This document shows, piece after piece, positions 1,805 through 52,232 of a stretch of 64,000 nt of DNA. Location of the stretch: assembly GCA_000004985.1 (NCBI GenBank), contig GG738904.1, one strand, 5' to 3'. A model generated the notes under the pieces. That model was not told the DNA's origin. It saw only the letters and a list, made by a program, of their open reading frames with translations, and made no database searches. Position 1 is the stretch's first letter, and the number at the start of each line of letters is the position of its first letter. The DNA comes from Naegleria gruberi. Its lineage: Eukaryota. The translations under genes were made by a program, and so were the position numbers.

Positions 1805-1877
1805 CGCCCACCGTGGGGGTCGAACCCACGACCACAAGGTTAAGAGCCTTGCGCTCTACCGACTGAGCTAGACGGGC
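1805..1877 (-). tRNA. tRNA-Lys (anticodon CTT)
   Basis: Reverse complement is GCCCGTCTAGCTCAGTCGGTAGAGCGCAAGGCTCTTAACCTTGTGGTCGTGGGTTCGACCCCCACGGTGGGCG. It has a full cloverleaf with a 7-bp acceptor, D arm, anticodon loop CTCTTAA and T loop TTCGACC. It is nearly identical to metazoan tRNA-Lys-CTT. Confidence 0.85.
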
Positions 1878-18584: not shown

Positions 18585-18656
18585 GGGACCATGGTCTAGT
18601 GGTATGATTCTCGCTTTGGGTGCGAGAGGCCGTGGGTTCGATTCCCACTGGTCCCC
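18585..18656 (+). tRNA. tRNA-Pro (anticodon TGG)
   Basis: GGGACCATGGTCTAGTGGTATGATTCTCGCTTTGGGTGCGAGAGGCCGTGGGTTCGATTCCCACTGGTCCCC. Cloverleaf with anticodon loop TTTGGGT. Close to eukaryotic tRNA-Pro. Confidence 0.85.
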
Positions 18657-18734: not shown

Positions 18735-20153
18735 TTACACTTCAAATGTTGAATAATTTAAACAAGCATCCAATATAAATTCCTTATCCAATAAAAAGTG
18801 GTCCCTTATGTATAATAGGCATGTATAATTGTTTTGTATACATTCCCTGACAAAAGATCGATTCAAATCCATTGAATTTCCAACTCTTAATAAAACCATT
18901 GCGTCCTTCTTAATTGCCTCCAACATGAGTTCTCTATCCTTATAAATTTCAGGATAATTAATATTGGATGGGACGAATCCAAGTCGAATAGCTTCCTTAG
19001 CATCGTTTTTATCCTTCGATAACGACAATTTATCATTCCAATATTGTAACATATTTCTTTCAATAGACCATTCCTCCTCAGTGGATTGATCATCAACTTG
19101 AGATTGGAATTCATCCTGAAGCCTCTTAGAGGCATGGACGATAGCATGTCTATTCTTTGAAATTGCCAATTGTACTATTTCTGTATCATCTCTAAATCTA
19201 TCTGCATATCTCAGAGATAGAGGGTTCTTTCCAATAGCTTCTTCCACTATTTCTTTATCATATTTCAATGGTTCTTCAACATATCTCAATAAATCTCCAT
19301 CCTTCCTTAAAGCACACAAAACAATTTCTCTATCGTATCCTCTAATCATCTTACTAGCAAACCGAAACTCTGCCGAATTCTTCTTAACACTCTCCAATAC
19401 TATTGTTCTATTTTTACGAATTGAAATATCCACATACTCCAAAATCACTGGCTTTCTACTCCTCTCAATATACTTTATCACAAACTCTTCACTTCTTAAA
19501 AACTTGAAAAGTCCATCCAATTTCAATGGTTTTCTTAACATGGCTACCATTGCCATTTCTTCATCAATGATTAGCTCATTTGCAAATTCAATTGCATACT
19601 CATTCCTATACACAGCTTTCATCATGAATTGTTTGTTCCCTAATAGTGATTTATCAGTATAATTGAGAATATACTTGTTCTTCTCAACCAAGTTCAATAA
19701 AACATCTTCATACAAGCTAAACTCAGGCCAAGTTGTGAAAATGTGTTCAGTAACTCCCCGAGAAGGTTGGTTTTTGGAATTTCTCAAAACAGCCAATATT
19801 ATTTCAACCTCAGCTTTCAAATGTTCTCCTATAAACCAATAGGCATCTGCATGACTTTTGACAGCAATCAAAGCAAGTTCTCTATCATTCTGAATATCAT
19901 CCCTCAAATGTTCCATAAATAATCCACAATATTCCAACAATATCTTTATAAACTCTCTCTTTTCCATTAATTGATTCGGTATTTCAATCGTTGTTGAACG
20001 TCTATATTTTCTACAATAAATATACGAAACAATTTTGAAATATTTCAATTCTCGCTGAATGAAAAAGTAATTTCGGAATAAATTTTTCAACCATTCACTC
20101 TTAAAATTGACATCAAGAATAATAGAAACTCTATCACCAGCACGATCACACAT
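18735..20153 (-). CDS. DUF4116-repeat protein
   Basis: At least five tandem repeats of about 36 aa of the D(R/K)E(L/I)xLxA(V/I)..n..a(l)xya. type, for example DRELALIAVKSHADAYWFIGEHLKAEVEIILAVL, DREIVLCALRKDGDLLRYVEEPLKYDKEIVEEAI and DRELMLEAIKKDAMVLLRV. ATG at 20153. Confidence 0.6.
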   Translation of the reverse strand: MCDRAGDRVSIILDVNFKSEWLKNLFRNYFFIQRELKYFKIVSYIYCRKYRRSTTIEIPNQLMEKREFIKILLEYCGLFMEHLRDDIQNDRELALIAVKSHADAYWFIGEHLKAEVEIILAVLRNSKNQPSRGVTEHIFTTWPEFSLYEDVLLNLVEKNKYILNYTDKSLLGNKQFMMKAVYRNEYAIEFANELIIDEEMAMVAMLRKPLKLDGLFKFLRSEEFVIKYIERSRKPVILEYVDISIRKNRTIVLESVKKNSAEFRFASKMIRGYDREIVLCALRKDGDLLRYVEEPLKYDKEIVEEAIGKNPLSLRYADRFRDDTEIVQLAISKNRHAIVHASKRLQDEFQSQVDDQSTEEEWSIERNMLQYWNDKLSLSKDKNDAKEAIRLGFVPSNINYPEIYKDRELMLEAIKKDAMVLLRVGNSMDLNRSFVRECIQNNYTCLLYIRDHFLLDKEFILDACLNYSTFEV

Positions 20154-22166: not shown

Positions 22167-23294
22167 ATGTTCGCAACTCATAACCACAACAATAATCAAT
22201 TCGTGCGTACTTCTCAGTATGAAGAAGAGGAAAATAACGATGTAGATTATCAAGGAGTTACCCATGTGCGTAGAATGATACCCATCATATTCAACAATCA
22301 AGAAGTTGGATATGAAGCCTTCGTATCAGAGGCAGGTGCTTCTTTCGATCAAGGAAATTCTTCTTCCTCATCAGCCACTACACCGTTCGCCTATGATGAT
22401 GAATATGATGATATCTCTCCAGAAGAGCAACAAAGGTGTCCAACCATGCTCATATACTTGAAGGGTTCTAATGGTGTCAAACGTAAAATTCTACAGGATA
22501 TTACTTGGGAATTATATCATTTTGATGGACTCATGATGCGTATCGGAAAACTCTTCCCACAAGAAGAACAAGTGAAAATTTCATGTGTAATTGGTAAATC
22601 ACGAAAAGTTGCCATTCAAAACGACGATGATTGGCAGCATGCTCTCCAACAATTGCTTTTAAATGATGAAACTATGATCAAGATATTCATCAAGAGTCAA
22701 AATCAACACCAACAGTCAAAAAAGAAGAATAAGAATCTCCTTCAAAAGATTGTTGACAAACAAGAAAAACAACAAGCAAGGAAACACTTTAAACAAGACG
22801 CTCTCATTGATACTTCTTCCATCAGGAATGTTTACATTGATGCTGGTAGTATTCTTCTCCACGTCCGTGATTTGAAGAGTCTTGCTTTTAACAGTGACAA
22901 GGATATTGCAGAGAAGACACTCCTCCGACTTGCAAAATCTCTCCATCAAACCGAATCATTCAACCACGTACACGTTTTCTTCAACTCCACCATGAATGTC
23001 CAACCAGAAGAGAATGAAGCAGGTACATTTGTTGTATCTATTGCTGAACCATTCTCCACTTCTGGTGACTTGATGAAGGAATTTTTAAACAGACAGATTA
23101 TAGCTGGCGCTTTGGAATCTTGTCTGGTTGTTTCTTGCGACCGTGTATTGTTAAAGGATTTGAATGATTATGGTGATGTGAAGGTTTGCAATGCTCGTTC
23201 TTGGTTTCGAATTTGTCAACATTCTGATGAGTTGATGATGACTAATAATCATAACAATTCCAAGGATTGGTTGAGAAATATATTAGTGAAATAG
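22167..23294 (+). CDS. hypothetical protein with a possible PB1/ubiquitin-like fold region
   Basis: 375-aa ORF with ATG at 22167. The segment MLIYLKGSNGVKRKILQDITWELYHFDGLMMRIGKLF...ISCVIGKSRKVAIQNDDDWQHAL resembles a PB1-type beta-grasp. The assignment is weak. Confidence 0.45.
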   Translation: MFATHNHNNNQFVRTSQYEEEENNDVDYQGVTHVRRMIPIIFNNQEVGYEAFVSEAGASFDQGNSSSSSATTPFAYDDEYDDISPEEQQRCPTMLIYLKGSNGVKRKILQDITWELYHFDGLMMRIGKLFPQEEQVKISCVIGKSRKVAIQNDDDWQHALQQLLLNDETMIKIFIKSQNQHQQSKKKNKNLLQKIVDKQEKQQARKHFKQDALIDTSSIRNVYIDAGSILLHVRDLKSLAFNSDKDIAEKTLLRLAKSLHQTESFNHVHVFFNSTMNVQPEENEAGTFVVSIAEPFSTSGDLMKEFLNRQIIAGALESCLVVSCDRVLLKDLNDYGDVKVCNARSWFRICQHSDELMMTNNHNNSKDWLRNILVK

Positions 23295-25625
23295 TTACTA
23301 GCCAATAATACCATTATTATCTCTACATTGTAAATATCCACCACTTCCAAATAAAACAAGTTTTCACATATCTCACACAATTTTAATTTACTAGAGCATC
23401 TCTACTAAACTTCATACTCAACCGAGAACTGTGAACATGAAGATAAGAAGATGAACTGCAACTTTTGTATGTCAAGACTGACACTAAAATATGTTCCATA
23501 TTTGTATGTCCACAACAATAACCAACCTGGATTTTGGAATGGTTAATATGGGCATAAAACGTGGATGCAAGAGATTCCACTCAATGTGTCTCAATTCTTC
23601 TCTTTCTGTCCAATCTTTCTATTTATTGAAACTTGTCATCACTTTCAGATTGGAGAATCATGCATTAACTGATCACTTGAATATACTACTTTTGAAATTA
23701 AAGAGAGAGGCAACTACAGCTCCGTTCCAATTCATTTTTCTTGGAGTTCAACTACAGTTTTTCAACAAACTGCTTGACCGTTTACAATCATTTACAAAAT
23801 ATTAATTATGAAAGTTGTTGGCAATTTACAGTTCAGAACAACTTCACCTCTCAAACCCTTAACTGCCAAACATCATTCAAACCTTAGATCATTTACAATT
23901 CGGTCATGGACTCTTTTGGCTAATTATCTATTATCTCCAAACTATGAAACCTATCCTCAACCATGCCTTACACTAATCACCAACTTTCGTTCCTACAAAA
24001 TTGACTAAGGTTGAGTGACTTGTTGATGGAAATCTCCCGCCAAATAAATTAAAAACTCAGAGACGTTACGTTTGAAAATTTTAAAAAAAAAGGCTAGAAA
24101 TCTTCCCTGCTGGTTTGATAAGAAGCCTCAAATGAAGAAGCCTTTTCATCATCAGAGTAATAATTTAATTTATAGTATGATAGTAGTATTTATTCCTAAT
24201 AGTAGTAATCAATGAAATGATCATTCTACTGTGATGCGATCAATATTCAATATATTATTAATATAATTCAAATAATTATTTAAATAAGCCTAAAGTGAAA
24301 AAAGCATCATGAATCATCAAAAACTGTAGATCATCATATGATCAATTACAATTTATCGTAAACAGAACTGATGGCCAACAATTTATTCAAAATGGCAGAA
24401 TTATCAGCATGAATCATTAATTATTCAAATTAATATTATTTTCGATCAATTTACTTTTTCTGATATCATGTTTCTTTTCATACTGTGCTTGCTGATTATT
24501 AAACCATAACAACAATTAACATACCAGAGGAGAACAATTCCCCCTCAATACCGCAATGACAATAGTACAAATTAATTCAACACAATACTGTTAATGGTAG
24601 AAAATTATACACTGTGGCCACACACGAACATAACCAGAATTGTACCTCTATTAATTATACTATCTAGTAATTATTGAACATATTATAATACTTAATGGTA
24701 TTTAACTGGGACAATAGCAATGAAATTCGAATATTTTCAAAATGTTTCATTTATTGAGACCTTTTATTGGTGATATGAATGTTGTGAATTTATTTTACAC
24801 CAGATTAGTTTTGAAAAACCTGAAAAGATGTTCATAGCACCTTATTTTATTTATGCACCAAAATTTCCATGTTTGTATTTTTGATCAATTACGTCTACAC
24901 CACATTTAAATACCGGAAATAACCATTTTAAAAAATTGTCATCTTTCCAGTCGTATTTGCATCCTTATGATGATGTTTCAACATGCAATCTTAGAGAGAT
25001 AATCATCTCTGTTCGTATTACTTCATTACTTCTGATATCATGTCATAATGATTGTATTTTTAAGTTATAGAGATACACTTCACTATTGTTACAATAGTGG
25101 AATTGAGGCGGGAATGACAGTTGGCAGTTAGTTAGTTGGCATTCAATATCTTTTATCTTGTACAACCAACTCAACGTTTGTTTCACAACAAATCATAGAA
25201 TATTCACTTTCAATGGCATTACCATTTTTCAAACTCAAATCTCCTATCATTAATAACTTCAAAACACCTCAACTATACCATACAACAAAACTTGGAGGAA
25301 TAGAATAAGATAATTACAGTGAAAATTCTTGTATTTGCTCTCAAATTACCCGATATAGAATTCTATTTACTCAGTTCGATTATAGAGTCCGTATCTTGTA
25401 CTATAAGAGAGATAATTTAGATTGGTTTAAAACATTTATGGCGTGAAGTTTGTACAATTCGATAATTCCAATAGATTCAACTTAAATTCATGGACCAACA
25501 ACAAATTGGTGGAGCAAAATGAATTTGGATTGGACGTCTGATGCCTCCCAAAAGTATAAATTCAAGCCAAACAGCAACATATTCCACCCAAAAACAAATC
25601 AAAAAAAAAACAACACACAAGTGAA

Positions 25626-26183
25626 ATGAACACTACTGCATCAAATAACTCTGCTCCAGTTTTTGGCAAGACCTCAACAACTAATAATCAATTACTTGAT
25701 ATTGATAATTTTTCCTTTACTGACATAATGTCTGCTGCTAGTCAATTTACTGATAACGCTTTTACTTTCTCTGAATCATCAACATATACTGTTGCTTGTT
25801 CAACTCCAAAGAAGAGAAAGATGAGTGCTAGATATGAAGACGAAATGGTCAATCAAGATGGTGATAACGAAGAACAACAATTAACTGTAACAACATCTTG
25901 TAAGAAAGTCAAAATGGAAACCTATACTGCTGCTACTTCTCCAACAAAGAAAAAGTTGCCAATCTTTAAACTCTCTGAAAATAAGACAAAAGATGCCAAT
26001 GTTGATCCAATGAACGCTGACTGTTCATCAATGAGTGCCTTGAAGGGAAATATGTTAGATTGCTTTAATTCAATTAATAGTATTGCTAGTGAATTGAATG
26101 ATGACTTTTTCAAATCATCAGTTTCTTCCTTTACTTCAGCTGATTTACAAGATTGTCTCAGTCTCTTGAATCAAAACTTTTAA
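25626..26183 (+). CDS. small S/T-rich protein with KKRK motif (paralog 1)
   Basis: 185-aa ORF standing alone in a gene-poor region. It shares TFSESSTYTVACSTPKKRKMSARYEDE and a C-terminal DCFN motif with the ORF at 29695..30093. Confidence 0.35.
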   Translation: MNTTASNNSAPVFGKTSTTNNQLLDIDNFSFTDIMSAASQFTDNAFTFSESSTYTVACSTPKKRKMSARYEDEMVNQDGDNEEQQLTVTTSCKKVKMETYTAATSPTKKKLPIFKLSENKTKDANVDPMNADCSSMSALKGNMLDCFNSINSIASELNDDFFKSSVSSFTSADLQDCLSLLNQNF

Positions 26184-29100
26184 TTCTCTCAACAATCAAA
26201 ACTTTTAATTCTCCTAACTGTACAGATTTAACTTGTAAATTAACTGTAATCTAACTCCCTCTAAGGTTGAATCAACTCTCATGGCTCAACAACTCTAAGA
26301 AATACTTTATGTATTCTAATAAATCAGAAAATCTTTGAAAAAACTTGAATTGTTTATTCTCTCCAATATTTAGTGAGATTTCTCTTCTCTGTAATGTATT
26401 CGAATCAAATGATGAATGCCCAAAGATTTGATCGTTTGTATTGTCGTCATCTTTACGAGAGGTATCACCATCACTGCTGAGAGCAACATCTACTTTAAGA
26501 TAGTTTACAAACCAAACTTGGCGCCAAAATTACAAAAATCTCTCGAGTCATCATTGTAATGGAATCCAAACTTGATGAAATCATAGACTATTATATTAAT
26601 TGATCAACCAGTAAGCAATACCAAATGCTGCTTTACAATTTCCTTTCAAATATTAACTTGCAAACAACATGAAAATCATCGGCGGTACTTAGTTGATTGC
26701 TGACATTAACTTCACTAACAATAAAGTTCAACAAATGCCTCATAACAAGTAGGAAATCACTCAAAGTAAGTGAACGGTTTTTTGTCATTGTACATTACTC
26801 ATAATGAAGTTCTTGATTCAAGTCCCATATTTTGGCAGGTATAGTGCTAAAGCGTAAGTAAAACTGTCAGATTTCATATTAAATTTGATAAAACATTAGT
26901 AAGATGTATAGCGTGTTCCAAAGAGAAGAGATTCTCTGTTCTTAAGTTCTTGTTGTTGATTATTATTGAAATTACCAACTTTAAAGTTTCCTAAAATGGT
27001 TAATTTGTGAACAAAATTAAAGGTATGTGAATAGATGATTCTTTACTGTAGATTGTTTTCATTTGTGGATGATTCTTACTGTAGATGACAATTTAGTTTG
27101 GAGTTTAGTTTCGTTTGTTGATTCGCTCCAATATTTGAGGCTAATGTCGTCATTGTCACCGCTTAATTATTGAAGATTGACATCATTTTAAATCATGGAA
27201 TTATTCCTCAGCTATTAATTATTCTTTAATCTGCTTGTTGCTCAATAAAAAAACCTGTCGATTAAGAACAAGTTTCGAATATCAGATTGAGTTGCTCATT
27301 TGGAGTTTGAACATGATAAATTAAATCAAACAATTGGAAAACTTGCAATTCTGTAAGATGACAAGCTGTAGACGATTATTGTATGAATGTATAATAATTA
27401 GTTTGTAAAATCTATTCGAATGTATATTCATCTTCAGAGGAAGCACTAACACATGGCAATTAACTTTTCTTTTTGGCTAATCCGAGCGTTTCGAATAAGT
27501 GGAATATTGATCACAAAGTAGTAAATTTTCAACTATTTGTGAAATGATTCTCATTCGTGGGATGAGCGACATGTCGTTGATCAAAATTATCAGAAACTGG
27601 ACTAAACACGATGTTGTTGATAATTCTCATCCGAAATAAATGAGAGAATATATTGTAATTCAATGAAATGGTCAATCAGATTCTTATTTTCACTTGAATA
27701 ACCGTAGATGTTACTGTAGTTTCGTTTCGAATGTAAACTAATCTGCAAGTGAAGCCCAATATTCAGATTCTCTTCAGTATCATATCACAATTCAGCCAGA
27801 TACTGATCCTCATCATCCATTTACCATAATTCCAATAGATGTCAAACTGTAGTGACCTTTCTTACAAAGAGTGGACGAAAGCTTTAGTATTTGATATTCA
27901 AGATGATAAATCATGCAACTCAATAAGCAGTAGTTTCTGCAATTGACTGGAGAATATTCATTAGATACTTTAATTTGCAAGCGTTCCAAATTCTGCAATC
28001 ATATCATAAATCTTCAAAAATATCTGAAACTGAACTAAAGTGGATCAAGGAAATCAAAAAAACATGATTCGTTAGATTTTTCAGTGAATATACAGTGTGA
28101 TTGTAAAACTGAGGAATACATTAGAATTGTTCTACATGCATAAAAATTGTAAATTTACTGTAGTTCGAAAGTGAACTAATGTGAAACGATTCTTCAGATC
28201 AATAAAAGGATAATATCACCCATGAGCAGATAGCTATCTCTCTTCCATCTATTTCACATGTTCAACGATTAAAATTCACTTCAAACTCTTTTTCACATGG
28301 TTTGTAAACTTTCGAATAAGTTTTTATACAATAAATCGACAACTTTCAAAGAATCTTCAAAACTTACTATTCTTGTTGAGCTGTCATCAATGAAAATAGT
28401 TATACGCCAAACATTGATAATTAGAAAGTTACCATCTTTTGCAGAGGATGAAGTTCCCTGTCAAATAATTGGCAAGTCACCTGCCAGTAAATAAAACTCT
28501 AATTTAAAGTGTAAAATTTACTTGTTTTTCAATTATGTTTCAACTCTGTCGATATTTAAACATTGTATCAGTTTCGGATTATACTTTCGAATAGCTGTTC
28601 TCAGGCTGTCATTCGAATAGGATTAATTTTCTTGATTTGGTAGTCCTATATCCGTATCAAAGATTCTTGTAGCCAATAATTTATGTTGTAAGTTGGAATC
28701 TTGATTAATTACCATTCTATATTTTCGCTATTCGAATTATGTTTCGTATACGAATTATTGGACTTGTGAAATTAAAGATATATTCAAATGTTGCTCCTGC
28801 TCTATTGTTATCCAGTTGTGGTTGATCATGTTTCCTAACATGTTCCTCAACTCGTCATCTCACCTATTATCCATTCTTGGAATTTCAAAAACCTCAATTA
28901 TTCGAAACTCATTGTAATCGAATGCAAATTAATAAAAGAAGAACTGCATTTCATCATTGATATCAATTCCATTCTTTTTGAAATTCACTGTAGATTAATC
29001 TCTATTCGAAACTACAGTTAGTGAACTAGTGTGTGAGTGGGGAGAAATCAATAAGAACGCAACAGATACGAAACTTGAAGGAACTATCCAAACACAATCA

Positions 29101-29694
29101 CTTTCAATCAACGGTGAAAAGTAACTAATTAGAAATTCGTAAATACGAAATAAAACTAATGTCTCTGTCACTTGTTATTTTATTTCTAACGTATTTTGAA
29201 TTGACAGATAGCTAGCCGGCATTGTGCAAAATCCATTCATTCATGAAAATAATCATTTATTTAGCTCTGTAATCATTTAACAGCTTTTTCAATAAATTGA
29301 TAAAACATTTGGCAGTTGACAGCTCTTTTAAACAGCCAACCTCAAATTTTTGACTTATCTATCACGAATAAACTTGATTTCATCTTGAAAATACTCGAAT
29401 TATTTTCTTTGACTTGTTTTATACTGAAATAAACCATAAATACAGAAATTTTGAATCTCCCAGAATTGATTCTATTATTTCTAAAACGGAATCTAATTAC
29501 ACTTTGAGTGATTATCATCTTCATACAGCTGAAAACTTTTTCATGGTCCACAGAATTAACATTTTCAATCCTTCTTCCTTTTTCTGTCATTGACAAGTGA
29601 CAAGATCATGGACAGTATAAATATCAACGAATTTTGTGCATCAAATGATTCAACAACACAAACAAAAAAAAACAACAAGAACAACAAAGCAAAA

Positions 29695-30093
29695 ATGAGC
29701 TCAACTGCTATCCAAACTCCAACTTTCTCCATGACAATGATCTATGACGTTGCTGCTTCAAATGATAAGAAGAGAAAAACTTCTCCAGTCAGCGAAGAAG
29801 AACATCAAATTGCCAACTGTCAACCAAGAAAATCAATCAAAGCTTCATCATCAACATCTCCTTCAAGAAAGAACAAAACAATTCCTAGAGTTGAAAGTCC
29901 AAAACAACAACCTGCTCTCCGTACTAGTGGTTGTACTTTGAATGCTGTCAATAATCAAGAATTATTGACATCTGTCTACTCAATTGAACAAAATATCAAA
30001 GATTGTTTGAATGAATTGAAGGGAATGGAAGAATTTGGTTTCTCTTCTGAATTGAGCATGGAATTTGAACAAGCTTTCTCCATGTTACATTAA
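29695..30093 (+). CDS. small S/T-rich protein with KKRK motif (paralog 2)
   Basis: The internal ATG at 29695 (aaaaATGagc) aligns with paralog 1: PTFSMTMIYDVAASNDKKRKTSPVSEEE ... DCLNELKG. The longer ORF from 29590 is also possible. Confidence 0.35.
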   Translation: MSSTAIQTPTFSMTMIYDVAASNDKKRKTSPVSEEEHQIANCQPRKSIKASSSTSPSRKNKTIPRVESPKQQPALRTSGCTLNAVNNQELLTSVYSIEQNIKDCLNELKGMEEFGFSSELSMEFEQAFSMLH

Positions 30094-31264
30094 GTCAACT
30101 GTCAATTTGACATCTAGGAATTTTGAATCGATAATTGTGATTCAAAATTTGTAAATTTATTCGAATGTAAAATAAGAACAACAACAACAACTCTAGGCAA
30201 ACATCGTACTCACACAAGTAGTACCAAGCGAGAAGAAACATACACTTCCTTCTCAATATTCCAATTTTGTAAAATTTTTGATCATTATAAATTATTATTT
30301 CTTTAAAAGTTTATTCAATTTCTTAAAAAGTGTTCGAAATAAAGTTTCTAAAAGTATTCGAATCAAAACTAAATATTAAGTGAACATTCATCCGCAACAA
30401 ATAGGATCAGCATTTAATTCTCCAAATAAGGGTGTAATGAAATTCAGTGATCACAAACAAGGTGATGAAAATGATAAATATTGTTAATAGCAATTTTCCA
30501 CTAATTTCAAGGCATACAATTGACAATAAAGGAGTGATTTCGCCTGCAACAGATGGATTTGGTTGTGTGACGGTTCATTGCGTGAGGAGTGTTTGCTAAT
30601 ACAATTGATTTTACAATTTCGAATGGAAGAGTGGATGATAGGGACTTGAAGTTTGTAGTGGATCCTTAATACAACACGAATTGAAAAGCATCATGTACAG
30701 AGCTACCTTTTGGTTGTAATTCACGTGTTGGTTTTCCAGAGTTTCGTCTCCTCCAATGGCACAAGTGCTTCATTCTCTAACAGTTCTGAAAGTCTTGCCA
30801 TGATACGAACGTACTTTCACTATTTCTGATAACATGATATTCTCCAATATATTTGAATCTTAACTACGATAGTTAGGGAAATAAATAATTTACAAATCAT
30901 TTTGGTGGAAAAGAGCTTTTTAATTATCTCAGTAATATCATTACCTGTCCACCCATATGAGTTGTCAACAAGTTTCAGAAACTTAACCTCATCACTGGTC
31001 ATGTAGAGCATATTCTTCTCTGAATTCATAAAATTGACAATATTATTAAATGTTATTGTAAACATAAACAATGGAACACAAATGAAGAAAGTAATCTCTT
31101 CCTTTGTTTCATTGTTTTTATATTTTATAATAATATTAGTAACCTTGTTACTTTGTTACTTGCTTAATTAAGATACCGCTCGTTCAAAATCAGTGCCATT
31201 TACATAAATGAGTTGCGACCTAGATGCTCAAATACGAAACATCAAAAAAAATTAAACAACTATA

Positions 31265-32276
31265 ATGCATTCCTCCTCTTTGAAGAGATTACCTTCACAG
31301 CAACTTGTGTTGATGTTTGGCATGTTTGCAGTGATGGCTCACTTAGTATTTGGTCAAAACATATTCACCCAAAACTTTAAACAGGCCATCAATGCTGCAA
31401 CCAATGAGTACAGTCATTCTCAGGAATGGAATTCTTACAAGGCAAGTCTTGGTTACACCTTTCCTGTTCCTACTTGTACCACAAGTGCTAATGACGCTGT
31501 TTATCCACAAGTATTCAATTGGACATTGAATGAGCTAGTTCTTTGCTATGAAATGGAAGCAGAAGATCCATGGCCAATGATGCATGAAAAGGCAGGGACA
31601 ATTACTTGTCAAGGCATTGAAAAATCATTACAATATCTTCAATTTGACAGCTAATTTCTTAATTCTCAATACCTCACAATCAGGATATTTCCCAACATTG
31701 AAAAATGCTGTTCAGAGTTCAATCTGTCATGTTGCTATTGCGTCCACAAACTATGAAGAAAGTAGAGCTAGTGAAGTTGACTTCCAATGTAAGTATTATT
31801 AAGAGATATAGTTCTCTAACACATGTGTAGGTCCATATGGAACAAGTTATACAGGAATATTGAGATCAGAACGTGATAATAACACCATACTAACCACACC
31901 TTCCGATCTTAACAAGGAAGGAATAATTGTTGCAGCTCCTTATTTGACAACTTCCTATGAGTATGCAAAATCCAATTTTCCAAAAGCAACCATCCTATCA
32001 AACTTTGGCTATAAAACTGCCTATAAAATGGTTTTTACTAAGGAGGTCCATGCTGTGGTTGGTGATTACATTGAAATGAGTGAATGGTTGGAAGCAAATA
32101 AGGGAAATTGCTCTCGTTGTTATATGAAAATTACAGATTCTTCTCAGAATTTCGGATCTTTCACAGCCAAATTTTCGGTATCATCAGCGAGAAGTAGCCT
32201 TCTGTATGGAGAGCCAATTATTGTTCTTCTTGATGATGATTATTGGTTTAATGGCAATCTATTAGAATTCTTATAA
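31265..32276 (+). CDS. secreted protein, possibly a type-3 solute-binding-protein-like (periplasmic binding protein) fold; three exons
   Basis: The signal peptide is MHSSSLKRLPSQQLVLMFGMFAVMAHLVFG. The exons are 31265..31607, 31651..31788 and 31831..32276. The introns are 31608..31650 (43 nt, weak GTCAAG donor, phase 1) and 31789..31830 (42 nt, GTAAGT...GTAG, phase 1). They join three ORFs that lie in different frames. The C-terminal GIIVAAPYLTTSYEYAKSNFPKATILSNFGYKTAYKMVFTKEVHAVVGDYIEMSEWLEANKGN resembles SBP_bac_3 lobe 2, so the fold call is tentative. Confidence 0.4.
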
Positions 32277-32644: not shown

Positions 32645-34396
32645 TTATTTGGTCGGAATTTTAAGTGAATCCAGATTCAAATCACTTCTCAAATTCTTCA
32701 CCTTATTACTCTCAAACTTGACCTTATTCTTCTTAACATGTTGCTTTTGAGTTTGTTTCTGAAATTCCACAGTTTGCTTGAATCGATGATGAGTATCCAA
32801 CATCAAGACACATATTTCACTTTCCACATTATCAAACAGAGTATCAGTCAAATGTTCATTCTCACCACTTGCAAAGTAATCCAATTGTTCCTTAACTCTA
32901 TCTGCAGCACTCTTATTAATATTCACTGATTTGTCTCCATTGATATCGAGGAAATCAGTGTAAATTTCAAAGGCAATTTCGTACTTTTTCTTTTCAATTT
33001 CATGGAGATCCTTCTCAGTGTAGCCCTTCTTCTTCTTCTTTTTGTGTTGATGGTCCAAGTTGGAGGAGTTGGCAGTTGCAGAGCTACCTGAATCGGAGAG
33101 AGAATCAGAATGAGAATTTGGACTCATGTCATCATAGAGGAATACTTGAATTTCAAAGGACTTTTCACACAGGATTTTGTAATCTGTAATTTTGTCCAAT
33201 AGTAAGTAATTATCCAAACTCAATTCTTGTTTACAATGGTCCCTGAATAGCTTTCTCAATTTGTTATCCCTCATAGTATCCATCAAGAGGAAGGCGTTGG
33301 CTGCCTTGAGCTTTTTCGTATTACTTGCATCCTTTCGAATAGAGACAATGATTGAGGCAATCACTGATGGCAACACAATGCAAATGGAAACACACACCAC
33401 AATGAGTGAAATTGTAGTGATGGTTACATTAACGCTTCGAGAACTATCTTCCAATTCATTCAGATAGTCAACTGTTGGCTGGAATTCTTCACTGTATCCT
33501 GCAATGTCATATTTGTAAGCGTCAGATTCTAATAACGTCATGGCATATGAATAGTTTCCAATATTTGCCAATTCTAACATTTGAGTTTCAAGAGCAATGG
33601 CCTTGGAAGTTCTCAAATCAGCAACTGAAACATTATGAGTATAGGTATATCGCAAATTAGTTGGCAAATAGGCCAACATTTTCGTAATTTCAGTATTGAA
33701 CTTGGTCTTACTCGTTTCGTATTTTGCAGTATAATTGGCTGTCAGTTGCAAATTGTTATTGGTATAGACAGATGATCTGCAAGCTGCCACCATTCTTTCT
33801 CTATACAATGTAATGTTCAAATCCATACTACCAATTGCTGTTTGTAATTCCGAGTTGACCACATAGTAAGCCACAATCAGGATAAGAAGAGCCATAAAGG
33901 CAAGGAAATTTACAATAAGGGAACTCAAATTCAAAAATTTGACAGGAGTCAATTCAATCGTGGAACCGAAACAAGTTCTAATTTTGAGCATGGTTGTGGA
34001 GGAATGACTTTTAGTGGTAGTCTTTGAACCAATACCAGAGGCAGATCTAGGTTGTTTCTTCTCACCATTATATGGATTACCAGTTGCCACATCATGTTCC
34101 TCAGCAAAATTGGCATTTCTATTCGATTTGTCCATCAGAGCCATCGATCTCATCTCAATGGACACAGAACTGGACTGATGCAAATGATTATTATCATGAG
34201 ATTGCAAAGAACTCGTCGAAGTATTCAAATCAGTTGGCAAATGATGAGAACCATTGGCATAAAGTGAATAATCACAATTATTTGGATCAATTTTGTGAAG
34301 TTCTTCAATGACATTTTGGATGGTTGACTTTTCATGGAGTGAATTCGAAGGAGTGGAAAGAGAAGGATGTTCTGTGATATTCTCTTGTTGCTGCAT
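32645..34396 (-). CDS. two-TM sensor-type RGS-domain protein
   Basis: The first ATG is at 34396 (MQQQENITEHP...). TM1 is LIVNFLAFMALLILIVAYYVV, followed by an extracytoplasmic domain of about 190 aa, then TM2 ISLIVVCVSICIVLPSVIASIIV. The C-terminal RGS domain reads LRKLFRDHCKQELSLDNYLLLDKITDYK...EIAFEIYTDFLDINGDKSVNINKSAADRVKEQL...ICVLMLDTHHRFKQT and carries a low-complexity insert. Confidence 0.6.
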   Translation of the reverse strand: MQQQENITEHPSLSTPSNSLHEKSTIQNVIEELHKIDPNNCDYSLYANGSHHLPTDLNTSTSSLQSHDNNHLHQSSSVSIEMRSMALMDKSNRNANFAEEHDVATGNPYNGEKKQPRSASGIGSKTTTKSHSSTTMLKIRTCFGSTIELTPVKFLNLSSLIVNFLAFMALLILIVAYYVVNSELQTAIGSMDLNITLYRERMVAACRSSVYTNNNLQLTANYTAKYETSKTKFNTEITKMLAYLPTNLRYTYTHNVSVADLRTSKAIALETQMLELANIGNYSYAMTLLESDAYKYDIAGYSEEFQPTVDYLNELEDSSRSVNVTITTISLIVVCVSICIVLPSVIASIIVSIRKDASNTKKLKAANAFLLMDTMRDNKLRKLFRDHCKQELSLDNYLLLDKITDYKILCEKSFEIQVFLYDDMSPNSHSDSLSDSGSSATANSSNLDHQHKKKKKKGYTEKDLHEIEKKKYEIAFEIYTDFLDINGDKSVNINKSAADRVKEQLDYFASGENEHLTDTLFDNVESEICVLMLDTHHRFKQTVEFQKQTQKQHVKKNKVKFESNKVKNLRSDLNLDSLKIPTK

Positions 34397-35352
34397 TTTG
34401 GGAGGTGATTGAGTTGGATTGTTTTTTTGAGTTTGGATATTCAATAGTATGGAGGGTTATTAATATCACAATAGTTTTGAATAGCTTGTGTGTGATAAGA
34501 AGATGAAGATTAAATGTGCGCGCTGTTGGGTTAATGTAATAGAGCATGTAAGAGATTGAGAAAAGGAGTCCTTCATCTTATTTACAATTAGTTTCGTACT
34601 TCTAACAACTCCATTGGAAACTGGTTGGAAAATTCCCAAATTCAAACATTCAAGCATTGCAGCTTTGTTAAATATCAAACATAAAAGTCATTTGTAAAGT
34701 ACGTCCACTCTTTCGCGCACTAAATTTTTGACTCATGTGAAAAATCGATGGTCAATTGTTACGTTCTTGCATGAAGCGGTATTTTAAAATTAAGATCCTC
34801 ATGTGGTAAAGTAAATGAGAATTTGTTGATTTGGAGACATTTTAGGAAGATGACAGTTCTCCCATAACGAAGAAGCGTACTGATTGAAATTGTTCTTTGG
34901 TTTCGAATAATGTTAATATTACTGTAGTTTAATGTTAGAACTGTAGTTTCTGTTCACTGTGAAATATTTCCGCCACCAACACTTACTGCAACAAAATTAC
35001 GTAGAAATCACACTCGGGATGAAAAGAGATTAATCTCCACTGGTATTTTAAAGTAATATTTAATTATTCGAATGGTTTCTTATTCTATAACTAAGGTCAA
35101 ATTACTTGCCGATTTTAGAACGTCGACATTCGGCGAAAGAGAGATTGAGCCGAATAACAAAACTTTCCATAAATTTTCACTGCATGACCAATTTATTTGA
35201 TATTGGAAACTGATATTGACGCAGACGAAACAATTCTTCACTCGCATTACATTGTTTTGTGTGGATATACTTGTCTAATTTTCTTCTCTGGATGTAATTT
35301 TCATCTACAGTGAACCCAGTCGAAACTGTAGATTGATGGTTTGTTGATTCGT

Positions 35353-35721
35353 CTAGTTTCGAATCAATTGTTGGAAAGGACTCTTATCAGTGTTTTCTTT
35401 CATGGTTGACCTAGGTGATGATGAGAATTTGTATCGTCTAATTGGTTGTTGTTGGGCTGGAGGAGACGAATCATTTTGTGGAAATTGGACGAAACTTGCT
35501 TTGGCAGGAAAGGGATTTTGAATTGGTTGGAGAAAAACCTTGCTAGGCGACGGTGGCAAAAGATGTTTTGGAGAGGGAGATTGAGTTTCGAATAGTTTCT
35601 TGGGAGGTAATTGAAACGAAACTCTTGAAATTGAATTCACCCCAGTAGATTCTTCTTGATCGTTATTCATAATTTCAGGAATCTCTACCAGAGACTCATA
35701 ATACGATGCAGCAGAACCCAT
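35353..35721 (-). CDS. small proline-rich protein with N-myristoylation-type start (MGSAASY)
   Basis: 122-aa ORF. M-G-x-x-x-S N-terminus. P/S/Q-rich. No domain. Confidence 0.25.
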   Translation of the reverse strand: MGSAASYYESLVEIPEIMNNDQEESTGVNSISRVSFQLPPKKLFETQSPSPKHLLPPSPSKVFLQPIQNPFPAKASFVQFPQNDSSPPAQQQPIRRYKFSSSPRSTMKENTDKSPFQQLIRN

Positions 35722-43475: not shown

Positions 43476-43699
43476 AAACAGCTTAATCCAATAAAAATAA
43501 CATCTCAAAGTATGGGCAGAAATCCTGTATTGTTGGATTTGTTCTCTATTCCAAGTCTACCTTGAATTTTAACCTTTTTCCTTCCTGAATGATGGATTGT
43601 TCACCAAAATGTCTTAAAATTGAACCATATTCAATTCATCACACTCAATATTTCGAGGTAAACACGTTAATGAGGAAATAAGATTCAAACTATTGTGCT

Positions 43700-43770
43700 C
43701 GTCTCGTGGTGTAATGGTAGCATAGTGGACTTTGAATCCATTGACGGAGGTTCGATTCCTCCCGAGACGG
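43700..43770 (+). tRNA. tRNA-Gln (anticodon TTG)
   Basis: CGTCTCGTGGTGTAATGGTAGCATAGTGGACTTTGAATCCATTGACGGAGGTTCGATTCCTCCCGAGACGG. The acceptor CGTCTCG/CGAGACG pairs perfectly. The anticodon loop is CTTTGAA. It matches eukaryotic tRNA-Gln-TTG. Confidence 0.85.
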
Positions 43771-44109
43771 TAAACGTGGCGAGCGTAAAAAATTTTGGTT
43801 TTTACAATGTGTAATAGCTCCAGATAAATTAAACAATAACACCAACCAGCTGACGCAGATTAATAACGCATATGGAAAGAGAATAAACCATTGGTTGGCT
43901 ATTATTGTAATGTTTGTTGTTCGGTTCAATGGTTATCTTCTGGAAACCAGTTCCATATTTGGCAAGTTGCAATATTCACACTTATCGAAAAAGTATGAAT
44001 ATCTCTAAAAAAACAGCCGGCTAGCAGCCTTGCAAGGTCATCTAATTGGTTTCCTTTCATTCCAACATTATCACAACAAAAACAAATAACACTGCATTCG
44101 TTAGAAACA

Positions 44110-52159: not shown

Positions 52160-52232
52160 GGGGTCTTGGCGCAGTCGGTAGCGCGTAGGTCTCATAATCC
52201 TAAGGTCGTGAGTTCGATCCTCACAGACCCCA
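52160..52232 (+). tRNA. tRNA-Met (elongator, anticodon CAT)
   Basis: GGGGTCTTGGCGCAGTCGGTAGCGCGTAGGTCTCATAATCCTAAGGTCGTGAGTTCGATCCTCACAGACCCCA. The anticodon loop is CTCATAA. It matches eukaryotic elongator tRNA-Met, including the T-T mismatch at 31-39. It is not the initiator type. Confidence 0.85.

What the first reader, a model, noticed from the sequence alone, without database searches (positions are those of the whole stretch)
25626..30093. Two paralogous small S/T-rich KKRK proteins are the only ORFs in an 8-kb gene-poor stretch
The ORFs at 25626-26183 and 29695-30093 are on the same strand, 3.5 kb apart. They share a conserved core (TFSxxxxYxVAxSxxKKRKxSxxxE[ED]E) and a C-terminal DC[FL]N motif, yet are otherwise diverged. 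The KKRK looks like a nuclear localisation signal. The region around them (23.3-31.2 kb) is unusually empty for this compact genome.
Basis: seen in the sequence. Interest (0 to 1): 0.5.

Follow-up and report, generated by a model that had tools for sequence, protein, structure and literature searches.

The report
Conserved Naegleria tandem pair of nuclear proteins
The two small ORFs are real, anciently duplicated genes found only in the amoeba Naegleria and close relatives; they encode mostly disordered, probably nuclear proteins, and part of the empty DNA around them is conserved regulatory sequence, but their function is still unknown.

Summary
The window is Naegleria gruberi. The ORFs at 25626-26183 (p1, 185 aa, NAEGRDRAFT_81467) and 29695-30093 (p2, 132 aa, NAEGRDRAFT_59401) are annotated 'predicted proteins' with consecutive accessions, so nothing is annotated between them.

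- **Paralogy is real.** BLASTP E 2e-6; Smith-Waterman 91 against 35±6 in shuffles; profile-profile E 4.6e-7.
- **Both have orthologues.** They occur in N. fowleri, N. lovaniensis and three environmental contigs. The p1→p2 same-strand tandem is seen in five genomes. dN/dS is 0.20 (p1) and 0.35 (p2).
- **No known family matches.** Pfam, PDB sequences and Foldseek give nothing, and 1.84 billion representative proteins yield only Naegleria-type relatives.
- **Protein anatomy.** AlphaFold2 predicts disorder plus a C-terminal two-helix domain. The KKRK/KRK patch and a CDK-consensus SPTKK / [ST]P[KS]R site are conserved.
- **The stretch is gene-poor.** ORF coverage is 17% against a median of 68%.
- **It contains conserved cis-elements.** These are TATAAAT boxes, a shared A8-10CAACA leader, elements at fixed distances out to -1.3 kb of p1, and a cluster of the over-represented 9-mer ACTGTAGWT.

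Best reading: two co-regulated, phosphorylation-controlled nuclear regulators with extended promoters. The biological role is inferred, not shown. Interest is modest.

The parts
23295..31264 (.). Gene-poor stretch holding only p1 and p2
   Evidence: ORF coverage is 17% against a window median of 68%. Accessions of the flanking and internal genes are consecutive. There are no Rfam matches above gathering score, no conserved coding segments by tblastx and no third family copy by six-frame HMM search.
25626..26183 (+). p1 coding sequence, 185 aa (NAEGRDRAFT_81467, XP_002671555)
   Evidence: Identity. Orthologues are 43-48% identical in N. fowleri, N. lovaniensis and L004-L006. dN/dS between N. 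fowleri and N. lovaniensis is 0.20. A ~99%-identical strain shows one synonymous change in the CDS against about 14 substitutions in 1.36 kb upstream.
29695..30093 (+). p2 coding sequence, 132 aa (NAEGRDRAFT_59401, XP_002671556)
   Evidence: Identity. Orthologues are 34-40% identical. dN/dS between N. fowleri and N. lovaniensis is 0.35. The upstream in-frame ATG at 29608 lies just upstream of the TATA-like box, so the annotated start is preferred.
25809..25820 (+). p1 KKRK (aa 62-65), putative monopartite NLS, preceded by TP
   Evidence: Invariant in all six p1 orthologues.
29767..29778 (+). p2 KKRK (aa 25-28), putative NLS, followed by TSPVSEEE (an SP site plus an acidic CK2-like site)
   Evidence: KRK, SP, S and EE are invariant in the p2 orthologues.
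25938..25949 (+). p1 SPTK (aa 105-108), full CDK consensus [ST]Px[KR]
   Evidence: SPTKK is invariant in the six p1 orthologues. The Pro is invariant across the whole family.
29857..29868 (+). p2 SPSR (aa 55-58), full CDK consensus
   Evidence: [ST]P[KS]R is conserved in the p2 orthologues.
26028..26174 (+). p1 C-terminal two-helix domain (aa 135-183), the only confidently folded part
   Evidence: AlphaFold2 predicts helices 135-164 and 171-183, with 10-residue block mean pLDDT between 60 and 95 across aa 131-185 (peak 95); elsewhere most residues are below 50. It holds the family-invariant N142, C146 and L181.
29953..30087 (+). p2 C-terminal two-helix domain (aa 87-131)
   Evidence: AlphaFold2 predicts helices 87-109 and 119-131, with 10-residue block mean pLDDT between 67 and 86 across aa 91-130.
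25555..25561 (+). TATAAAT box, 71 nt upstream of the p1 ATG
   Evidence: The AAAAGTAT(A/T)AA context is shared with N. fowleri and N. lovaniensis p1.
29616..29622 (+). TATAAAT box, 79 nt upstream of the p2 ATG
   Evidence: L005 and L006 p2 have TATAAAT at -72.
25589..25615 (+). p1 A/C-rich leader containing A10CAACA
   Evidence: Direct repeat D6 with the p2 leader, 81% identical over 27 nt. The exact 12-mer AAAAAAAACAAC occurs only here and in the p2 leader in the 64 kb. It occurs once in each of L001, L002, L003, L005 and L006, always in a p1 or p2 leader. The length of the A-run differs between two N. gruberi strains.
29651..29677 (+). p2 A/C-rich leader containing A9CAACA
24323..24332 (+). 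Distal conserved element ACTGTAGATC, 1,303 nt upstream of the p1 ATG
   Evidence: The same motif, in the same orientation, lies at -1286 (N. fowleri), -1248 (N. lovaniensis) and -1288 (L004). N. gruberi and N. fowleri also share ATGAATCA just upstream of it.
24995..25006 (+). Conserved 12-mer AGAGATAATCAT (GATA-like core), 631 nt upstream of the p1 ATG
   Evidence: It lies at -640 in N. fowleri and -639 in N. lovaniensis. Five of the seven GAGATAAT copies in the window lie in the gene-poor stretch.
29515..29546 (+). Conserved p2 promoter block TCATCTTCATaCAGctgAAAACTTTTTCAtGG (-180 to -149)
   Evidence: This is the only non-coding blastn match shared with both N. fowleri (84% over 32 nt) and N. 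lovaniensis. It is unique in the window, with 0 expected.
27045..29018 (.). Motif cluster in the p1-p2 spacer: six ACTGTAGWT copies and eleven TTCGAA copies
   Evidence: ACTGTAGWT occurs 12 times in the window against 0.87 expected (0 of 100 shuffles reach 12). Eight copies are in the gene-poor stretch and all are intergenic. The cluster is not a repeat array.

Best explanation
p1 and p2 are a Naegleria-lineage-restricted pair of genes that duplicated long ago and remain in tandem.

**Protein architecture (the same in both).**
- A disordered, S/T-rich N-terminal and middle part with a short F/S-rich acidic motif.
- A conserved basic KKRK patch, read as a nuclear localisation signal, flanked by proline-directed (S/T-P) sites and, in p2, by acidic CK2-type sites.
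- A conserved full CDK-consensus site (SPTKK or [ST]P[KS]R).
- A roughly 45-50-residue C-terminal two-helix domain, the only part predicted to fold.

**Most likely mode of action (inferred).** They are small nuclear regulators or adaptors. Phosphorylation controls their import or activity. They dock onto a partner, or onto each other, through the C-terminal helical hairpin.

**Promoters and flanks.** Each gene has a TATA-type promoter with a shared A-run/CAACA leader, which suggests co-regulation. The gene-poor flanks are, at least in part, extended cis-regulatory DNA. For p1, elements are held at fixed distances out to -1.3 kb in four species. The p1-p2 spacer carries a dense cluster of the same 9-mer, ACTGTAGWT.

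**What is shown.**
- The genes are real and under purifying selection.
- The paralogy and the conserved tandem arrangement.
- The predicted disorder-plus-hairpin architecture.
- The conserved motifs and the conserved cis-elements.

**What is inferred.** Nuclear location, phospho-regulation, partner binding, and any role in the cell cycle or in amoeba-flagellate/cyst differentiation.
For: **Identity and annotation:**

**Paralogy:**

**Family membership.** An exhaustive HMMER search of 1.84 billion representative proteins found only p1-type relatives (P0006, P0008, P0009) and p2-type relatives (P0010, P0012), plus two repeat-protein artefacts. The named members are N. fowleri FDP41_009121 and N. 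lovaniensis C9374_003498.

**Tandem arrangement.** The p1→p2 tandem is present in N. gruberi, N. fowleri, N. lovaniensis, L005 and L006. Each locus has exactly two copies.

**Purifying selection.**
- dN/dS is 0.20 and 0.35, similar to the neighbouring genes at 0.14-0.22.
- Between two N. gruberi strains the CDS has one synonymous change, against about 1% divergence in the flanks.

**Architecture:** AlphaFold2.

**Conserved KKRK, SPTKK and C-terminal columns:**

**Promoter features:**

**Positionally conserved upstream elements.**
- p1: 24 position-conserved 8-mers against 1.33 in shuffles (maximum 8).
- p2: 14 against 0.57 in shuffles (maximum 9).

**ACTGTAGWT.**
- Window: 12 copies against 0.87 expected.
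- N. fowleri: 2 against 0.16 expected. N. lovaniensis: 2 against 0.30 expected. All four copies lie in p1/p2 flanks.

**N. fowleri versus N. lovaniensis.** The proximal 1.2 kb upstream of p1 is 100% alignable at 68% identity, although dS is about 0.7.
Against: - No expression, localisation or interaction data could be reached. No gene identifier appears in 8 million papers, and the two supplement searches gave nothing: none are held as text for one paper, and the identifiers are absent from the other's files.
- KKRK is not rare in this proteome: it occurs in 4 of 34 ORFs of the window.
- L005 and L006 p2 have only NKRK.
- Most of the 3.5-kb p1-p2 spacer shows no conservation between N. gruberi and the other species.
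- Only 29% of that spacer aligns between N. fowleri and N. lovaniensis.
- The spacer is only about 1.2 kb in L005 and L006, so much of its length may be dispensable.
- The six-copy ACTGTAGWT cluster in the spacer is specific to N. gruberi.
- The structural models rest on 7-8 sequences, with mean pLDDT 57-59.
Confidence: 0.5

Rival explanations
1. The emptiness is neutral. The genes are real, but the long flanks are mostly non-functional filler, such as decayed insertions or remnants of lost genes. Only ordinary proximal promoters are under constraint, so the 8-kb gap carries no special regulatory meaning.
For: - Apart from short elements, there is no N. gruberi versus N. fowleri/N. lovaniensis conservation in the spacers.
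- The p1-p2 spacer length varies: 3.5, 2.6, 2.2 and 1.2 kb.
- Only 29% of the spacer, and 12% of the distal half of the p1 upstream region, aligns between N. fowleri and N. lovaniensis.
Against: - A motif is kept at -1.25 to -1.30 kb of p1 in four species, although synonymous sites are saturated.
- The 9-mer is strongly clustered: 8 of its 12 window copies lie here.
- Large flanks are retained in three sequenced Naegleria genomes, even though the upstream neighbour has been inverted.
- No repeat, transposon or pseudogene signal was found.
Confidence: 0.3
2. The spacers hold unannotated transcribed features, such as long or small non-coding RNAs or an intron-rich gene missed by ORF scanning. 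The region would then not be empty at all.
For: - ORF scanning cannot see short exons or RNA genes.
- There is a weak C/D-box snoRNA-like match (snoR160, 26.7 bits against a gathering score of 42, E 0.96) at 26917-27000.
- The motif pairs could belong to promoters of unannotated transcripts.
Against: - No Rfam match reaches a gathering score.
- tblastx finds no conserved coding segment against the two other Naegleria genomes.
- Three independent annotations (N. gruberi, N. fowleri, N. lovaniensis) call nothing there.
- The longest spacer ORFs are 58-65 aa.
Confidence: 0.12
3. p1 and p2 are lineage-specific cyclin-dependent-kinase inhibitors or substrates, functional analogues of Sic1, Cip/Kip/KRP or SIAMESE. 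On this reading they dock on cyclin-CDK through the conserved SPTKK-x-[LV]P[IL][FI] stretch and the C-terminal helices.
For: - The class resemblance is from general knowledge: small, disordered, fast-evolving, nuclear, several S/T-P sites, conservation limited to motifs, and a short C-terminal module.
- N. gruberi p1 has KKLPIF, which fits an RxL-type pattern [RK]xLxΦ.
Against: - No member matches the Pfam CDI domain or any other family, even at E up to 10.
- The RxL-like pattern is not kept in N. fowleri or N. lovaniensis p1 (KQVPLI), nor in p2 orthologues.
- There are no PDB sequence or fold matches.
Confidence: 0.07
4. The ORFs are chance open frames in non-coding DNA, and the similarity comes only from composition.
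For: The proteins are short, low-complexity and S/T-rich, with no database family.
Against: - Orthologues exist in at least five other genomes or contigs, with conserved frame, length and motifs.
- dN/dS is 0.20-0.35.
- The shuffle z-score is about 9.
Confidence: 0.01

Closest known systems
Phospho-regulated NLS modules ('CcN'-type: CK2 site + CDK site + NLS, as in SV40 T antigen or yeast Swi5; from general knowledge)
   Same: A short basic K-K/R-x-K/R patch sits directly next to S/T-P and S-x-x-E/D sites. In p2 this is KKRK-TSPVSEEE and in p1 it is S-TP-KKRK. These columns are conserved among orthologues.
   Different: There is no homology. The resemblance is a motif arrangement only. Neither import nor phosphorylation has been demonstrated.
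Small intrinsically disordered CDK inhibitors (Sic1/Rum1, Cip/Kip/KRP with Pfam CDI PF02234, plant SIAMESE/SMR)
   Same: Size (130-210 aa), predicted disorder, a nuclear signal, several proline-directed sites, rapid sequence evolution with conservation restricted to motifs, and a short C-terminal module.
   Different: No CDI or other Pfam match at E up to 10. No conserved RxL motif across the family. No structural or PDB match.
Taxonomically restricted ('orphan') gene families of protists
   Same: Detectable only in Naegleria-type genomes among 1.84 billion representative proteins. Annotated as hypothetical or predicted proteins.
   Different: Unlike young orphans, this family predates the N. 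gruberi / N. fowleri split. It was already duplicated by then, is under purifying selection and sits in a conserved micro-syntenic block.
Developmental or regulatory genes with extended upstream regions in compact eukaryotic genomes (for example the long upstream regions of yeast and Candida master regulators; from general knowledge)
   Same: Unusually long non-coding flanks in a compact genome, with positionally conserved distal elements and clustered short motifs.
   Different: Nothing is known about Naegleria cis-regulation. No evidence shows that p1 or p2 are regulators. Most of the spacer is not conserved.

Membership tests
p1/p2 family (defined here) | Significant sequence similarity between the two window ORFs and between their orthologue profiles | tested here: met
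   E 2e-6; 0 of 2000 shuffles reach the observed score; hhalign E 4.6e-7.
p1/p2 family (defined here) | Shared architecture: F-S motif, K(K/R)RK patch, [ST]Px[KR] site, and a C-terminal N-x3-C helix followed by a second helix ending in ΦxΦL | tested here: met
   Alignments. AlphaFold2 helices.
Classical monopartite NLS | K-K/R-x-K/R consensus in an exposed or disordered region | tested here: met
   KKRK at p1 aa 62-65 and p2 aa 25-28, both in regions with pLDDT below 50. It is invariant in p1 orthologues. L005 and L006 p2 have only NKRK.
Classical monopartite NLS | Importin-dependent nuclear accumulation | not testable with these tools
   Needs localisation of tagged protein or a heterologous import assay.
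CDK substrates | Full consensus [ST]-P-x-[KR] | tested here: met
   p1 has TPKK (aa 60) and SPTK (aa 105). p2 has SPSR (aa 55) and three further minimal SP/TP sites. SPTKK is invariant in p1 orthologues.
CDK substrates | Phosphorylation by a cyclin-CDK | not testable with these tools
   Needs a phosphoproteome or a kinase assay.
Cip/Kip/KRP CDK inhibitors (Pfam CDI, PF02234) | Match to the CDI domain profile | tested here: not met
   None of the nine family members matches PF02234 at E up to 10. Searches also gave nothing.
Cip/Kip/KRP CDK inhibitors (Pfam CDI, PF02234) | Conserved cyclin-docking RxL motif | tested here: not met
   A KxLxΦ pattern is present only in N. gruberi p1 and L004-L006 p1. 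It is absent from N. fowleri and N. lovaniensis p1 and from all p2 sequences.
Any Pfam, PDB or known fold family | Profile, sequence or structural match | tested here: not met
   Pfam. PDB sequence profile: best E 0.56. Foldseek against PDB: 0 matches. The model confidence is low, so the fold search is weak evidence.
Known RNA families (Rfam 15) in the spacers | Match at or above the family gathering score | tested here: not met
   Only two sub-threshold matches were found in 22.5-32.5 kb.

The most novel reading that the evidence does not exclude
p1 and p2 are a genus-specific pair of co-regulated master regulators. For example, they could be a heterodimerising nuclear switch, or lineage-specific CDK inhibitors, controlling the Naegleria cell cycle or the amoeba-to-flagellate or cyst transition. 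Their unusually long flanks would then be true enhancer-like control regions built from arrays of a previously undescribed Naegleria cis-element, ACTGTAGWT. That would give the first defined distal regulatory element and regulator pair in Heterolobosea.
Probability: 0.12. Interest if true: 0.55.

Novelty: new variant of a known kind. Interest (0 to 1): 0.3.

Why it matters
**If the reading holds, it gives two things.**
- A small, conserved, Naegleria-restricted protein family, also present in the pathogen N. fowleri as FDP41_009121 and its downstream neighbour. Its clear motif architecture can be tested as a phospho-regulated nuclear regulator.
- A set of concrete candidate cis-regulatory elements in an organism where I found no literature on transcriptional control. 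These are the ACTGTAGWT 9-mer, the -0.63 kb GATA-like block, the p2 -180 block and the A-run/CAACA leader.

**The limits are real.** The genes are already annotated as hypothetical proteins. No function is demonstrated. Lineage-specific disordered nuclear proteins with long promoters are not surprising in themselves.

Tried and rejected
1. **Segmental DNA duplication of the two loci.** Self-blastn of 23.0-31.5 kb found nothing, so the paralogy is visible only at protein level, plus the short leader.
2. **A third copy or pseudogene in the spacer.** Weak tblastn hits at 27.2-27.6 kb (E 0.12-1.4) were not supported by the six-frame HMM search.
3. **Longer ORF models.**
   - The 213-aa ENA model of p1 depends on an A9/A10 run-length difference and starts upstream of the TATA box.
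   - The 161- and 167-aa extensions of p2 start just upstream of its TATA box and add no similarity to p1.
   - Both were rejected in favour of the annotated ATGs.
4. **Known families.** Pfam, PDB sequences and Foldseek against PDB gave nothing.
5. **Word-indexed protein searches.** These found only Naegleria proteins. P0007 and P0011 from the exhaustive search are repeat proteins that match one helix segment repeatedly, so they were discarded as artefacts.
6. **Rfam on 22.5-32.5 kb.** Nothing reached threshold.
7. **Tandem or dispersed repeat structure of the spacer.** None was found.
8. **Metagenome scans for more loci.** The family alignment was too divergent to search with, and the p1-group scan returned no relatives.
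9. **Transcript or expression evidence.**
   - No exact-product contigs exist for p1, p2 or the 375-aa neighbour.
   - No paper mentions the identifiers.
   - For the two Naegleria papers checked, no supplements are held as text for one, and the other's files lack the identifiers.
   - Literature on Naegleria cis-elements or CDK inhibitors gave nothing usable.
10. **ACTGTAG as a cluster conserved in other species.** The dense spacer cluster is specific to N. gruberi. Only the -1.3 kb copy and a few others are shared.

Full report
**What the window is.**
- A protein search with the first ORF returns a single 100% match, a 'predicted protein' of Naegleria gruberi on a 297-kb scaffold.
- Exact look-ups identify p1 (25626-26183) as EFC38811/XP_002671555 (NAEGRDRAFT_81467).
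- They identify p2 (29695-30093) as EFC38812/XP_002671556 (NAEGRDRAFT_59401).
- The 375-aa ORF upstream (22167-23294) is EFC38810.
- These accessions are consecutive, so the reference annotation places nothing between them.
- Composition is about 33% G+C, with dense ORFs elsewhere and four tRNA genes.

**Checking the observation.**
- The ORFs, their strand, their spacing (3,511 nt) and the quoted motifs are as described.
- The similarity is statistically sound:
  - BLASTP gives E 2e-6 over 128 columns.
  - Each protein finds only the other when searched against the six frames of the window.
  - The local alignment score is 91, against 34-35 ± 6.2 and a maximum of 72 in 2 x 2000 shuffles.
  - With orthologues added, hhalign of the two groups gives 92.6% probability and E 4.6e-7.
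- The region is the emptiest part of the window. ORFs cover 17% of 23295-31264, against a median of 68% for 8-kb windows, and the two largest ORF-free gaps flank p1.

**Are these real genes?**
- An exhaustive HMMER search with a profile of the two proteins, against 1.84 billion representative proteins, found five further small proteins. Two hits were repeat-protein artefacts.
- The real hits fall into a p1 type and a p2 type:
  - The p1 type is P0006 (N. fowleri FDP41_009121 cluster), P0008 and P0009.
  - The p2 type is P0010 and P0012 (N. lovaniensis C9374_003498).
- Fetching the contigs shows p1 followed by p2 on the same strand:
  - In N. fowleri they are at L002 10001-10630 and 13266-13760.
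  - In N. lovaniensis they are at L003 7165-7788 and 10001-10480.
  - The same tandem is present in two environmental contigs, L005 and L006.
- L004 carries p1 and ends before a p2 could appear.
- A six-frame HMM search finds exactly two copies per locus and no pseudogene in any spacer.
- Between N. fowleri and N. lovaniensis, dN/dS is 0.20 for p1 and 0.35 for p2. The neighbouring genes give 0.14-0.22.
- A ~99%-identical N. gruberi strain (L001) has one synonymous change in the 558-nt CDS, against about 14 substitutions and 4 indels in 1.36 kb upstream.
- The ORFs are therefore genuine, selected genes, and the duplication predates the split of N. gruberi from N. fowleri and N. lovaniensis.

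**What the proteins look like.**
- There is no Pfam family for either protein, nor for any of nine members even at E up to 10.
- There is no PDB sequence match (best E 0.56).
- AlphaFold2 with the small family alignment predicts disorder, apart from a C-terminal helical hairpin:
  - In p1, helices 135-164 and 171-183, with 10-residue block means between 60 and 95 across aa 131-185, plus a weak helix at 31-40.
  - In p2, helices 87-109 and 119-131.
- Foldseek against the PDB found nothing, as expected for such a model.
- Alignments show that conservation is concentrated in a few places:
  - An F-S-rich motif ([ST]F[ST][FLM]). In p1 it is preceded by MSFEDMMSAAS-type sequence.
  - The basic patch: KKRK is invariant in p1, and p2 has KKRK, RKRK or NKRK.
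  - In p2, an invariant SP..S.EE directly after the patch.
  - A full CDK-consensus site: SPTKK is invariant in p1, and p2 has [ST]P[KS]R.
  - In p1, the stretch [LV][PS][IL][FI]xL[SG][ED][KN]KT[QK][DE].
  - The C-terminal helices, which hold the family-invariant Asn, Cys and Leu.
- p1 is acidic (pI 4.7) and p2 is near neutral (pI 6.7).
- From established knowledge of K-K/R-x-K/R signals and [ST]Px[KR] sites, this is the anatomy of a small nuclear protein regulated by proline-directed kinases, which acts by binding something through a short folded module. That reading is inference; no experiment is available.

**The promoters.**
- Both annotated ATGs are preceded by a similar A/C-rich leader, 81% identical over 27 nt. 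Each also has a TATAAAT box, at -71 for p1 (25555) and -79 for p2 (29616).
- The exact 12-mer AAAAAAAACAAC occurs only twice in the 64 kb, in these two leaders.
- In the other loci that have it (L001, L002, L003, L005, L006), it occurs exactly once, always in a p1 or p2 leader.
- The alternative upstream ATGs lie just upstream of the TATA boxes (25541 for p1, 29608 for p2). For p1, the alternative ATG is in frame only in the strain with one fewer A. The annotated starts therefore stand.

**The 'empty' DNA.**
- It contains no Rfam family at threshold, no tandem or dispersed repeat family and no conserved coding segment.
- It does contain conserved short elements:
  - Upstream of p2, a 32-nt block at 29515-29546 is shared with N. 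fowleri (84%) and N. lovaniensis, and is unique in the window.
  - Upstream of p1, ACTGTAGAT(C) lies at -1303 in N. gruberi, -1286 in N. fowleri, -1248 in N. lovaniensis and -1288 in L004, in the same orientation.
  - AGAGATAATCAT lies at -631, -640 and -639.
  - Further 8-mers lie at about -445 and -381.
- Position-conserved 8-mers number 24 for p1, against 1.33 in shuffles (maximum 8). For p2 they number 14, against 0.57 (maximum 9).
- Between N. fowleri and N. lovaniensis, the proximal 1.2 kb upstream of p1 aligns completely at 68% identity, although dS is about 0.7. Only 29% of the p1-p2 spacer aligns.
- The 9-mer ACTGTAGWT is strongly over-represented in the window: 12 copies against 0.87 expected, with no shuffle reaching 12.
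- All its copies are intergenic. Eight lie in the gene-poor stretch, six of them between 27045 and 29018, and the other four lie in the intergenic region at 34.9-35.3 kb.
- Its flanks are not conserved, so it is a short element and not a repeat family.
- N. fowleri and N. lovaniensis have two copies each (expected 0.16 and 0.30), all in p1/p2 flanks.
- TTCGAA is also dense in 27.3-29.0 kb, but it is over-represented window-wide at 68 copies against 22.5 expected.

**Interpretation.**
- The descriptive conclusion is secure: a conserved, anciently duplicated, Naegleria-restricted tandem pair encoding disordered proteins with a C-terminal helical hairpin.
- The long upstream region of p1 is, at least out to -1.3 kb, conserved cis-regulatory DNA.
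- The p1-p2 spacer is less clear:
  - Its length varies from 1.2 to 3.5 kb among species.
  - Its motif cluster is specific to N. gruberi.
  - It may therefore mix regulatory sites with dispensable sequence.
- The functional conclusion is the best-supported mechanism but rests on motif logic only. It holds that these are co-regulated nuclear regulators, controlled by phosphorylation, that bind a partner.
- A CDK-inhibitor-like role is attractive by analogy. It fails the testable family criteria: there is no CDI domain and no conserved RxL motif.

**Comparison with known things and novelty.**
- The genes are already in GenBank as hypothetical proteins.
- I found no paper naming them and no family record.
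- The new points are the family definition, the tandem conservation and the cis-elements.
- The kind of object is familiar: a lineage-specific disordered nuclear protein pair with extended promoters.
- I rate it a new variant of a known kind, with modest interest (0.3).

Noticed in passing
window 34921-35333 (copies at 34921, 34940, 35303(-), 35325): Four more copies of the over-represented 9-mer ACTGTAGWT lie in two close pairs. They are in the intergenic region between the RGS-domain gene (32645-34444, -) and the ORF at 35353-35721 (-). This is the only other place in the 64 kb that has the motif.
   Followed up: partly
whole window: The palindrome TTCGAA occurs 68 times against 22.5 ± 5 expected from dinucleotide-preserving shuffles (maximum 34), in coding and non-coding DNA alike. 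It is locally densest at 27.27-29.01 kb, with 11 copies. The cause is unknown.
   Followed up: partly
window 25589-25613 vs L001 1411-1436: The A-run in the p1 leader is A10 in the window and A9 in a ~99%-identical N. gruberi strain from an ENA metagenome. The one-base difference puts an upstream ATG (25541) in frame and produced a 213-aa ORF call (P0002) that is probably an artefact.
   Followed up: yes
window 22167-23294 (+); L002 6405-7580 (-); L003 3984-5135 (-): The 375-aa upstream neighbour has no Pfam or PDB match. It is conserved next to p1 in N. fowleri and N. lovaniensis (29-33% identity) but in the opposite orientation. A local inversion therefore occurred, while the p1 upstream elements kept their distance to p1.
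   Followed up: partly
window 18735-20153 (-): A 472-aa protein made of seven DUF4116 repeats (Pfam E 8e-62).
   Followed up: no
window 26917-27000 (+): A sub-threshold C/D-box snoRNA-like match (snoR160, 26.7 bits against a gathering score of 42, E 0.96) in the p1-p2 spacer. It is probably chance, and it is not conserved in the other species.
   Followed up: partly
window 31265-31654 and 31860-32276 (+): Two same-strand ORFs (129 and 138 aa), 205 nt apart, bound the gene-poor stretch downstream and may be exons of one gene. They have no similarity to the genes downstream of p2 in N. fowleri or N. lovaniensis, so synteny ends here.
   Followed up: no
window 23316, 23930, 24996, 25409, 30923: Five of the seven GAGATAAT (GATA-like) copies in the window lie in the gene-poor stretch. 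One of them is the positionally conserved -631 element of p1.
   Followed up: partly
window 1805-1877, 18585-18656, 43699-43771, 52160-52232: Four dispersed tRNA genes (Lys-CTT, Pro-TGG, Gln-TTG, Met-CAT).
   Followed up: no
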